DNA of 64,000 nt, from the NCBI GenBank assembly GCA_963693365.1, contig CAVNZM010000007.1, positions 8,987,962-9,051,961 on the forward strand, given 5' to 3'. Below, piece by piece: positions 49,001 to 52,000 of this stretch (its first letter is position 1; each line of letters starts with the position of its first letter). The translations under genes and the position numbers were made by a program. This stretch comes from Amoebidium appalachense (Eukaryota > Protista > Ichthyosporea). The notes beneath the pieces were generated by a model. The model made no database searches and was not told the DNA's origin. It saw only the letters and a list, made by a program, of their open reading frames with translations.

Positions 49001-52000
49001 CCCCTCTCCAATCACTACAAGGTAGCTCTCGGATTCACATGCCCACGAAGGCATATGCAATCACTAACATGCTTTCTAAACACACATGGTATCATGGGCG
49101 TCGTGCTTTGCACCGTGGTCTTTAGTATCACGATACTTCCAAATCCCACCCTTTCCCTTTTGGTGTTATGTTTCATTGTGAACCCAACAAACCAACAAAA
49201 GCTTGGTGGTGTCCGACCCCGTCAGGTGAGCCAGAGAATCTTAAAATATCTGGACATGACCACTTTGCTTACACCATGCAAGCATCAATCGCGCTAATAC
49301 ACGTGTGATATGTCACGATGCAGGGTTATCATACATGGGCAGATAACAATGCTTACCTCGGCAACACCCAGGTCTGATATTTTAATTTCGCCCTCACGTG
49401 ATAGCAGCAGATTCCCGGGCTTGATATGTGCATGAAGTCAAGGAAGAAACACCCACTGACACATGGCCAATCGTGCATAACCTCATGTGCAAACAGTACT
49501 TTGTCCATGCAATCCTTGCCCCTGTGTAGGAGAAGCATGCACGTGTGTGGATGTGTACGTATCGTGTGACTCCAAATGTGCACATGCCCACAAGCACATT
49601 GAACAGTCAGGCACCTAATATAATGCGGTTTTGATTCTAGATGCACAGCGACTTGCGTGTTCCTGTGTGTAGGCATTGGTGCTGCGCTGTACAATGCCAA
49701 AGCAAGCAGGTGCATTGTTTGCTGGACGTGCATGCACATGTGGTGTGTGTGTGCAAGTGCACATGTTTGGTGTGGGTATCTCTGTGGATGACGCCCTTGC
49801 TGTGCAGATACTGCAGCCCATCCATCAGCTGAACAAAGTACCTGCAGCCCCACAGTCAGGGTGGTAATATACCAACTGCAACATGTGCCCACACAGCTTG
49901 CCATCGACTCAATGGGTTAACCCTAACCCCCCCCTCACACCCTTCACAAAAACCCACACAAACCCACCCATCCGCCCGCCCAACCACCCGCTCACCTCCC
50001 CCCTCCGCCACCTCCTCAAACAACCCTCCCCACCCACACCCATCACCCCCACCTCTCATCCCCCCCTCCCCCCCTCCCCACCTCAACCCCCCCACCCACG
50101 CCCACCCACCCACCCACCCATCCACCCACCTCCCCCAACCCAACCACCCTCCACCCACCCACACCCCCGACCACCCACTCACCCACTCACCCCTCCACCA
50201 CCTACCTACCCACCCACCCACCCACACCCTCCCCCAACAAACCCAACCCCACCCACCCAACCCCACCCAACGCCCCACCCCCCTCCCCATCCACACCCAC
50301 ACCCTTATCTACACCCCCCTCCCCCCTCCCCCCCTCCCCACCCACCCACCCCAACCCCCACCCATCCACCCATTTCCCTTCCCCCCCCCCCCCTCCCCCC
50401 CCCCCCCCCCCCCCCCACCCACCCACCCACACCACATACGCATGTGCCTGCCAGTCGGGCAGTCTATTTCCATCAGCGCTATCGACCATATCCTGCAGGC
50501 CCCCTATGCAGTACTCCATAACCATGTAGAGCTTCTGTTTCTCCTCGTTGTATAAAACGTCGTGCAGGGTGATAAGATGTCGGTGTCGCAGTTTGCGCAA
50601 AAGCATGATCTCTCTGTTGTATGGGCAATGTTAGTTCTGTGTTCAGTGTGTGGTGAGTCTCTTTTCCTGACCTATCGGTAACACCATAGGAAAGTAGTCC
50701 TCAATTCAACACACTTAAAATGGAACCCGTCTACACCTTGCACGAGCATAACCACATGCACAAACGAGCGTATATATGCACTCATGCCCACACATCCCAA
50801 CCCTTATGTGCACACACACACGCACACACAGGCACGCGCGCCCACCAACACACACACACAAACATAAGGCAACAGACACCCCGAGGGAGGAGGAGAGAGG
50901 CCGAGAGAGAGGGTGGGGAGGGGGGAGGGCGGGGGAAGGGGGAAGGCGGAGGGGATGAGCTGAGAGGGGACCAAGCACGCACCAAACCAAACATCAGCGC
51001 AAAAAAAAAAAAAAAAAAAAAAAAAAAAAACTGCAGCAATCGCGCCATATCCCCTGTGTGCACCCCACCTTTTCACGTTTGCCTCCCCGTTAGCTATCTT
51101 CCTCAGCTTGCGCTTTTTCATGATCTTGATGGCTACCCGGGTCAGGTTCTCAGAGTGGATGCCCTCCTTGACCTTGCCGTACGACCCTGCAACAAACAAA
51201 GCATTGGTCACTTCATTCTCCTTATTCCCTCTACCCCACCTCCACCCCCTCCTCCCCCACTTTTTTAAAAAAAAGAAATGAAAAACGAAAGAAAGAAGCA
51301 TCTCGCCCATTTCTCTTCTCACCCCACCATCACCTACCCGTAAGCAAACAGCCATGCCCCTTCGCAGCTGCCCTCCCTCCCCCCCCCACCCCACCCCTCT
51401 CGCACCCCCCACCCCCACCCCCACCCCCACCCCCCACCCCCCCCCCCCCTCACCATCTACCTCCCCCCCCCCCTTCCTCCCATATAAAACCGAGGAGGGC
51501 AAGCATGAGGAAGAAGAAAACAAGGGTGGCTTTCCCTGGTATATGATAGCAGATTCACCTCTCCCCCATGGCCCCAGGTTTTCACTTCGGTCATAACCCA
51601 ACTCCTTCCCCGTTCACTCCTATTCCTTCGATTCACCCCTTCTCCCGCTCACCCCCCACTTTCCAGCTTAACTTTGTAACTTTGTAACTTTGGTTGAGCA
51701 AATGATGCGAAGCAAAGTCTGTGTCTGCATGCATGTGTGTGTGTGTGTGTGTGTGCGTGTGTGTGTGTGTGTGCGTGCGTGTGTGTGTGTCTGTGTGTGT
51801 GTGTGTCGGGGGGGGGGGGGGGGGGGGAGGAGGAGGGGGAGGTATATAGGGGCAGCCACCTTCACCGAGGACATCCCCCAGTATGTATCGTCCCACCTGC
51901 ATGCATGGGGCTATTCAGTGGCCACACAACAGTGCAAGTCCGTGCAGGGCCGTGCTTCCCAGTAACAGGTGCCAGAACTCAAACCCTCCATCCCCCTCCC

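What the first reader, a model, noticed from the sequence alone, without database searches (positions are those of the whole stretch)
49428..49779. AT-AC minor intron splitting the catalytic Asp codon of LKB1, at a different site from the human STK11 AT-AC intron
Seen: neither side of the HRD|IKPGN junction offers a GT or AG that preserves the catalytic loop. The only recognised intron class that restores HRDIKPGN is AT...AC, and a U12-type branch site (TTCCTTGAC) sits 9 nt from the intron end. Established: human STK11 intron 2 is a U12-type AT-AC intron in the EEKQKM/YMVME region; here that region ([12 protein letters not shown], exon 50613-50440) is uninterrupted. Inference: this lineage has a minor spliceosome. 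LKB1 either carried two minor introns ancestrally with reciprocal loss, or acquired minor-intron dependence twice. Retention of this intron would give a kinase-dead product, so it could act as a rate-limiting switch on AMPK-family signalling.
Basis: partly seen in the sequence, partly recalled or inferred. Interest (0 to 1): 0.85.

Follow-up and report, generated by a model that had tools for sequence, protein, structure and literature searches.

The report
AT-AC intron in protist LKB1 gene

Summary
A 352-nt AT-AC intron (49779-49428, minus strand) splits the catalytic Asp codon of an ichthyosporean LKB1/STK11 orthologue. Contigs of two runs of one sample skip exactly this stretch, and a transcriptome protein reads HRDIKPGN. 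The branch site matches the U12 consensus 9 of 9 with the adenosine at -11 (chance about 4e-4). The donor does not fit the strict consensus (ATACCCAC, 5 of 8), so I file it as a donor-divergent U12-like intron, about 80% likely to be spliced by a minor spliceosome. The machinery could not be tested: no genome is held. It matters because four surveyed unicellular holozoans have 0-2 minor introns and no U11 or U12. The site lies 152 nt from the human AT-AC intron. Three close relatives read straight through it, so old-and-lost-elsewhere (about 55%) and newly gained (about 40%) both stay open. An unspliced contig covers the intron, a weak hint of slower splicing; a regulated switch is not shown. 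Retention keeps the Asp but truncates the kinase at 226 residues.

The parts
49428..49779 (-). AT-AC intron (intron 6), 352 nt, phase 1, in the catalytic Asp codon (D180 of P0002)
49772..49779 (-). Donor ATACCCAC: A+3, C+5, C+6 as in U12 donors; C+4, A+7, C+8 depart from RTATCCTT
   Evidence: 5 of 8
49437..49445 (-). Branch-site motif TTCCTTGAC; predicted branch A at 49438 (-11)
   Evidence: 9 of 9; branch use not mapped
49428..49434 (-). Acceptor CATGCAC
49780..49841 (-). Exon 6, ends in the first base of the Asp codon
49357..49427 (-). Exon 7, rest of the catalytic loop and the DLG motif
50440..50613 (-). Exon 5, uninterrupted across the site of the vertebrate AT-AC intron
49804..49811 (-). 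Possible cryptic donor GTATCTGC, 32 nt upstream; would explain transcriptome isoform P0001 as a GT-AC splice
   Evidence: one of 6 equivalent readings; not among the joints
49637..49639 (-). First in-frame stop if the intron is retained (226-residue product)
43093..43210 (-). Predicted exon 16 ending CKQQ-stop (CAAX box); not in P0002
   Evidence: junction not checked in reads
43093..52944 (-). LKB1/STK11 orthologue, coding span

Best explanation
This is a real AT-AC intron that is cut out of LKB1 transcripts, likely by a minor (U12-dependent) spliceosome that this ichthyosporean lineage still keeps. Shown: the termini, the exact junction in spliced contigs and the restored catalytic loop. Inferred: U12 snRNA pairs with the perfect TTCCTTGAC and branches at the A 11 nt from the end, while U11 and U6atac read a loosened donor that keeps C+5 and C+6; a 9-nt motif would be expected to decay if nothing paired with it. 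Unspliced transcripts would stop at residue 226, nine or more junctions before the end, and would likely be degraded, so slow splicing would lower LKB1 output rather than make a second protein. On history I lean (about 55%) to an old minor intron lost in animals and in close relatives, against about 40% for a gain in this lineage.
For: Junction bridged by an X2 contig with 65 letters on the shorter side, also seen in X1; P0002 reproduced exactly. Branch motif 9 of 9 at -11, against 4-7 of 9 for the 13 GT-AG introns, whose YTRAY adenosines lie at -15 or further where present; the vertebrate-type AT-AC intron in locus L022 has TCCTTGAC with the A at -13. Known U2-spliced AT-AC introns all have G at +5 (PMC2831892 passage); this one has C. 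ATANCC follows 87 of 6778 AT dinucleotides in the window. Phase 1 is the commonest phase for minor introns (PMC10639083 passage). Weak hint: the unspliced X1 contig has depth 27 against 223 for the spliced joint, while introns 8, 11 and 12 are only partly covered at depth 5-8 and intron 7 not at all, in line with about 2-fold higher retention of U12 introns in human cells (PMC4066798 abstract). For age: de novo minor introns are reported as very rare, and this gene keeps six intron positions that match human ones (human boundaries recalled except c.735).
Against: The donor fails the strict rule RTATCCTT (5 of 8; rule in PMC2846911) and scores below GT-AG introns 1 and 11 of the same gene (6 of 8); local major donors are degenerate and often C-rich, so the donor alone does not discriminate. 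The exon ends in AG, a feature of major and minor-like introns (PMC11347168), although the G is forced by the Asp codon. Four surveyed unicellular holozoans have 0-2 minor introns, no U11, U12 or U4atac, and at most one U6atac hit. I saw no second minor-type intron in the window: the other three TTCCTTRAY matches are not at a minor-type distance from an acceptor that I could see (read by eye). Against age: three exon-level ORFs of close relatives read through the site, and 13 of 14 metagenome LKB1 loci covering it are uninterrupted. The tool warns that contig depth cannot rank parts of a gene, and all runs are one sample.
Confidence: 0.8

Rival explanations
1. History rival (compatible with minor splicing): the intron was gained in this lineage after it split from its close relatives, by insertion or by cryptic U12 sites replacing a nearby major intron, so LKB1 came under the minor spliceosome twice.
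For: P0160 (on a 60,202-nt JGI contig), P0154 and P0155 read through HRDIKPGN and then run into non-homologous sequence after GVAE, as unspliced DNA would; they are 32-33 of 34 identical to the window there (Creolimax 30 of 34) and group with the window, Creolimax and Pirum (support 91/96, not starred). P0003, on a contig of the same length, also lacks the vertebrate-site intron. Ichthyophonids had a burst of intron gain (PMC5560861). L017 has a GT-AG intron 2 nt upstream, in the Arg codon, and one U2-to-U12 conversion by cryptic sites is in print. Capsaspora has the gene but no intron listed at the human site (Table S8 row counted by hand), so that intron is not shown to be old either.
Against: Gains of minor introns are very rare outside Physarum. 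Relatives that lost the machinery would have had to lose this intron anyway. No inverted termini or second copy in the window that would mark a transposon. P0154 and P0155 could come from partly spliced RNA. L017's AG|GT site is a common insertion site, and its place in the tree is unresolved.
Confidence: 0.4
2. The lineage has lost the minor spliceosome, and the major spliceosome now splices this relic (or type II) AT-AC intron, using TTGAC as its branch site and a tolerant donor.
For: Decayed donor, exonic AG before it, acceptor TGCAC one base from the TGCAG that ends 7 of the 13 GT-AG introns; surveyed relatives lack U11 and U12; U2-type AT-AC introns exist (PMC1557818).
Against: No G at +5 and little match to a U2 donor; branch A at -11 is closer than in any GT-AG intron of the gene where a YTRAY was found; the four extra bases TTCC of the U12 motif are intact.
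Confidence: 0.13
3. The intron is a regulated switch: cells tune its retention to set LKB1, and so AMPK-family, activity.
For: Unspliced contig over the whole intron and a piece in X2; a frameshifted isoform, P0001, at the same acceptor.
Against: Most transcripts appear spliced; one sample, no conditions compared; close relatives do without the intron; a pan-eukaryote survey argues that minor intron patterns are largely neutral.
Confidence: 0.15
4. Artefact: an assembly error in the termini, or a template switch that mimics splicing.
For: The junction can slide 3 nt; its two ends share 9 of 12 bases at best, the highest of the 14 introns (6-8 for the others).
Against: An independent contig matches the intron with 0 differences; 9 of 12 is below the 11 of 12 used to flag such artefacts; the joint is the dominant form and the only one that restores the kinase.
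Confidence: 0.02

Closest known systems
Human STK11/LKB1 intron 2 (U12-type AT-AC, r.374_375, Met125)
   Same: Same gene (E 4e-128 to STK11 chain 8vsu_C), same termini, same branch motif type; a vertebrate-type copy is seen directly in L022.
   Different: 152 nt (51 codons) further downstream, phase 1 instead of phase 2, inside the catalytic Asp codon; donor ATACCCAC against ATATCCTT in L022. Not the same intron.
Canonical U12-type AT-AC introns of animals, plants and early fungi
   Same: AT-AC ends, TTCCTTRAC close to the acceptor, C+5 C+6, phase 1.
   Different: Donor departs at +4, +7 and +8; found in a group where surveyed members have almost no minor introns.
Physarum polycephalum transformed minor introns
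   Same: Precedent for minor introns with shifted signals, a co-evolved snRNA and new gains.
   Different: There the branch motif changed and thousands were gained; here the branch motif is canonical, the donor is loose, and only one intron is known.
U2-type (type II) AT-AC introns of sodium-channel genes
   Same: AT-AC ends with a non-U12 donor.
   Different: Those have G at +5; this one has C+5 C+6 and a full U12 branch site.

Membership tests
U12-type AT-AC intron | AT-AC termini, removed from the transcript | tested here: met
U12-type AT-AC intron | Branch site TTCCTTRAC close to the acceptor | tested here: met
   9 of 9, A at -11; consensus
U12-type AT-AC intron | Extended donor RTATCCTT | tested here: not met
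   ATACCCAC, 5 of 8; C+5 and C+6 kept; rule
U12-type AT-AC intron | U11, U12, U4atac, U6atac and minor-specific proteins in the genome | not testable with these tools
   no genome held; none in the window
U12-type AT-AC intron | Splicing depends on the minor spliceosome | not testable with these tools
   needs knockdown or in vitro blocking
U12-type AT-AC intron | More retained than neighbouring major introns | tested here: inconclusive
   contig depth 27 against 223, neighbours 0-8; depth of contigs cannot rank parts of a gene
U2-type (type II) AT-AC intron | Strong U2 donor with G at +5 | tested here: not met
   C at +5; criterion
Orthologue of human STK11 intron 2 | Same position and phase in the alignment | tested here: not met
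   D180 (human D176) phase 1 against Met125 phase 2
LKB1/STK11 kinase | Best matches are STK11, well above AMPK-family kinases | tested here: met
   431 bits to STK11 against 185 or less for others; named hits
LKB1/STK11 kinase | C-terminal CAAX box | tested here: met
   predicted last exon ends CKQQ-stop; animal orthologues P0004 ends CKQQ
Transposon-derived intron (Introner-like) | Inverted termini, multiple copies | tested here: inconclusive
   no second copy in the 64-kb window; rest of genome not available

The most novel reading that the evidence does not exclude
This ichthyosporean keeps a working minor spliceosome with a shifted donor consensus (ATACCC) and has gained a new minor intron in the catalytic codon of LKB1, so that LKB1 came under minor-spliceosome control independently in it and in animals.
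Probability: 0.3. Interest if true: 0.82.

Novelty: new variant of a known kind. Interest (0 to 1): 0.58.

Why it matters
Minor introns link animals, plants and early fungi, but the unicellular relatives of animals that were surveyed (Sphaeroforma, Capsaspora, Monosiga, Salpingoeca) show 0-2 such introns and no U11 or U12. A spliced AT-AC intron with an intact U12 branch site points to a surviving minor spliceosome in a unicellular holozoan, which would move the losses to individual lineages and give a sister-group reference for the minor introns of the first animals. It also makes two open questions testable on one gene: whether minor introns are ever gained anew, and whether a donor that breaks the consensus is matched by changed U11/U6atac. 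If both LKB1 introns turn out to be separate gains, that would be a rare argument for selection on minor splicing of a growth-control kinase; if both are old, it is a clean case of reciprocal loss. Retention of the machinery by itself is what descent predicts, which caps the surprise.

Tried and rejected
No whole genome is held, so snRNA and protein searches were impossible; Rfam finds nothing in the window. The cluster look-up for P0001, P0002, P0003 and P0005 could not be made, so the genus is not determined. Run X3 laid nothing. The viral collection gave one unrelated intronless kinase, L081. Of 80 metagenome loci, 21 are LKB1-like by my reading; the other 59 were dropped. Of the 21, 7 do not cover the HxD site; 13 of the 14 that do are unbroken (10 distinct sequences; L014 and L020 have no intron in the kinase domain at all). 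The short-protein search cannot find ORFs that are broken at HRD, so it says nothing on how common the intron is. Sphaeroforma's STK11 cell in Table S8 reads 'no_ortholog' by my hand count: uninformative. Sliding from the human site was rejected (152 nt apart). A predicted helix between the donor and a GTGGGTGT just before the branch site appears in the fold, but that word is expected 0.1 times per 352 nt here, and no shuffle control was run; left as a curiosity. GT-AG introns 1 and 11 have U12-like donors but poor branch sites (5 and 6 of 9), so I do not call them minor. The P0001 joint was not among the joints. Supplements of PMC8280824, PMC9120149 and PMC11039992 gave no usable presence table. 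Earlier scan findings: nothing relevant.

Full report
1. The observation. On the minus strand exon 6 ends CAC AGA G at 49780, the intron runs 49779-49428 (352 nt, ATACCCAC ... TTCCTTGAC TTCATGCAC) and exon 7 begins AT ATC AAG CCC. I enumerated in-frame, stop-free junctions of 11 terminal types around the site; only this AT-AC pair gives HRDIKPGN. A 15-exon model reproduces the transcriptome-derived protein P0002 (441 aa, EukProt) exactly, with 13 GT-AG introns and this one AT-AC intron (a second solution differs only by a 4-nt shift of intron 5). Public contigs confirm it: X1 and X2 skip 352 nt at this place, with a 3-nt slide that includes the AT-AC reading; X2 bridges with 65 letters on the shorter side, X1 with 27. 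The runs are one sample and their RNA label is a guess by the tool, but they join exons at every intron laid. One X1 contig covers the whole intron with no differing letter, which excludes an assembly error in the termini.

2. The gene and organism. The protein is LKB1/STK11: 431 bits to human STK11 against 185 or less for the next kinases. The closest named protein is Creolimax CFRG4051T1 (79% over residues 40-260), ahead of other unicellular holozoans and animals at 70% or less; a 105-column tree groups the window with Creolimax and Pirum (91/96, not starred). I infer an ichthyophonid ichthyosporean; the genus is not determined. Six introns (4, 5, 7, 9, 10, 11) fall, after a 12-nt offset, at human c.290, 464, 597, 734, 862 and 920. 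These human boundaries are recalled, except c.735; the first three are also seen in loci L019 or L022.

3. Which spliceosome. The branch motif matches TTCCTTRAY 9 of 9 with the A at -11; the 13 GT-AG introns reach 4-7 of 9. The motif occurs 4 times in 128,000 strand positions, so about 4e-4 for a 13-position window. The donor is the weak point: 5 of 8 against RTATCCTT, below GT-AG introns 1 and 11 (6 of 8), and it fails the rule quoted in PMC2846911. It keeps C+5 and C+6, whereas known U2-spliced AT-AC introns have G+5 (PMC2831892). From recall, the U11 base facing +4 is a G, so C+4 would still pair; this was not tested. I therefore say it works like a U12-type intron (about 80%) but do not file it as canonical. 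The argument for living machinery is inference: a perfect 9-nt branch site at the right distance should decay without U12 pairing.

4. Why that is not trivial. In the supplement of Olthof et al. 2024 (PMC11347168), Sphaeroforma arctica has 1 minor intron, Capsaspora 0, Monosiga 2 and Salpingoeca 1, against 213 in Amphimedon, 121 in Trichoplax and 237 in Basidiobolus. The two choanoflagellates have no minor snRNA hit; Sphaeroforma and Capsaspora have one U6atac hit each (59 and 115 nt). I found no paper on minor splicing in ichthyosporeans: searches returned 0 papers, and none of the listed papers (20 of 214; 25 of 205; 30 of 52; 25 of 318) held both kinds of term. Larue and Roy 2023 include Sphaeroforma and Capsaspora, but their per-species values are in a figure and data files I could not see, and they may bear on this claim.

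5. History. The human intron lies at r.374_375 in Met125 (PMC12366057); I saw it directly in vertebrate-like locus L022 as a 210-nt AT-AC intron with ATATCCTT and TCCTTGAC. The window's intron is in the codon matching Asp176, 152 nt away. Of 14 metagenome LKB1 loci that cover the HxD site, 13 are unbroken and one, L017 (an AT-rich, unplaced eukaryote), has a GT-AG intron 2 nt upstream. Three exon-level ORFs of close relatives (P0160, P0154, P0155; 32-33 of 34 identical) read through the site and then into non-homologous sequence at the next conserved intron; P0160 lies on a 60,202-nt contig and is surely genomic, the other two may be partly spliced RNA. The Met125 site is unbroken in the window, in P0003 and in 20 of 21 loci (a biased set), and the Capsaspora cell of Table S8 reads 'protein_ortholog' (my hand count to column 369, checked against neighbouring genes named from recall). 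So neither intron is shown outside its own lineage. Rare gain in print and the likely loss of the machinery in relatives favour an old intron (about 55%); absence in every relative sampled, the loose donor and the ichthyophonid burst of intron gain keep a new gain at about 40%. These odds are my judgement.

6. Consequence of retention. The unspliced reading still starts the codon GAT, so the Asp is kept; the frame runs 46 more codons and stops at 49639-49637, giving 226 residues without IKPGN, DLG and the C-lobe. With many junctions downstream such RNA would likely be degraded (inference). X1 holds the unspliced intron in one contig at depth 27 against 223 for the joint; introns 8, 11 and 12 are partly covered at 5-8 and intron 7 not at all; X2 has a 163-nt piece at 2.7 against 17.2. 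The contig has only 30 and 27 exon letters at its ends, under the tool's bar for bridging, and contig depth cannot rank parts of a gene, so this is a hint only. It fits the slower splicing of minor introns (PMC4066798 abstract) and does not show regulation. Isoform P0001 skips 384 nt to the same acceptor region; one of six equivalent readings is GT-AC from GTATCTGC at 49811, which would suit a minor spliceosome choosing a rival donor, but it may be an assembly or template-switch product and was not among the joints.

7. Papers and what I saw. PMC11347168: passages, section 17, supplement rows. PMC10639083: passages, section 30, supplement name list. PMC2831892, PMC2846911, PMC1557818, PMC12366057, PMC5560861, PMC12130899, PMC11244446, PMC9120149 and bioRxiv 10.1101/2020.10.12.336362: passages. 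PMC4066798: abstract. PMC8280824, PMC9120149, PMC11039992: supplement searches without usable result. Hastings et al. 2005 (LKB1 AT-AC mutation): reference listing and one citing passage only.

8. Verdict. Observation confirmed; interpretation partly supported. A donor-divergent, U12-like AT-AC intron at a position I found nowhere else, in a group not known from my searches to keep minor splicing. New variant of a known kind; interest 0.58, rising to about 0.8 if a gain and a shifted donor consensus are shown.

Noticed in passing
window 44023-43093 (-): P0002 ends by reading through a GT donor at 44022 into a stop; splicing there would add an exon ending CKQQ-stop. Suggests two C-termini, with and without the CAAX box, recalling the short mammalian LKB1 isoform (recalled).
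   Followed up: partly
window 49811-49428 (-): Transcriptome isoform P0001 (179 aa) skips 384 nt; readable as GT-AC from a cryptic donor, or as an artefact.
   Followed up: partly
L017:7959-8059: LKB1 of an AT-rich unplaced eukaryote has a 101-nt GT-AG intron in the Arg codon of HRD, 2 nt upstream of the window's intron.
   Followed up: partly
L022:1329-1538: Vertebrate-type STK11 AT-AC intron with canonical donor and branch site.
   Followed up: yes
window 52873-52458 and 46483-45761 (-): GT-AG introns 1 and 11 start GTATCC and GTATCT (6 of 8 to the U12 donor) but have poor U12 branch sites; intron 11 ends in a short imperfect tandem repeat.
   Followed up: partly
window about 7100-22980 (+): Multi-exon Rab-GAP gene, TBC domain plus weak PH_RBD match; TBC1D15/17-like by recall. 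Introns looked GT-AG by eye.
   Followed up: partly
window about 28300-42100 (+): Multi-exon DEAD-box helicase, DDX10/Dbp4-like by recall; converges on LKB1 tail to tail.
   Followed up: partly
window about 59960-64000 (+): Start of a gene with an exon resembling HGH1/FAM203 (recalled; no Pfam match on 32 aa); a TTCCTTGAC at 59948 lies only 6 nt from an AG.
   Followed up: partly
window 26150-26380 (-): Probable exon of a minus-strand gene between the TBC and helicase genes; no Pfam match.
   Followed up: partly
whole window: Introns are rich in long poly-G/poly-C runs and CA/GT repeats; major donors are very degenerate and many acceptors end TGCAG.
   Followed up: no
P0164: A JGI LKB1-like ORF has an in-frame insertion at HSK|GVI, suggesting yet another intron position a few codons before HRD.
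   Followed up: no
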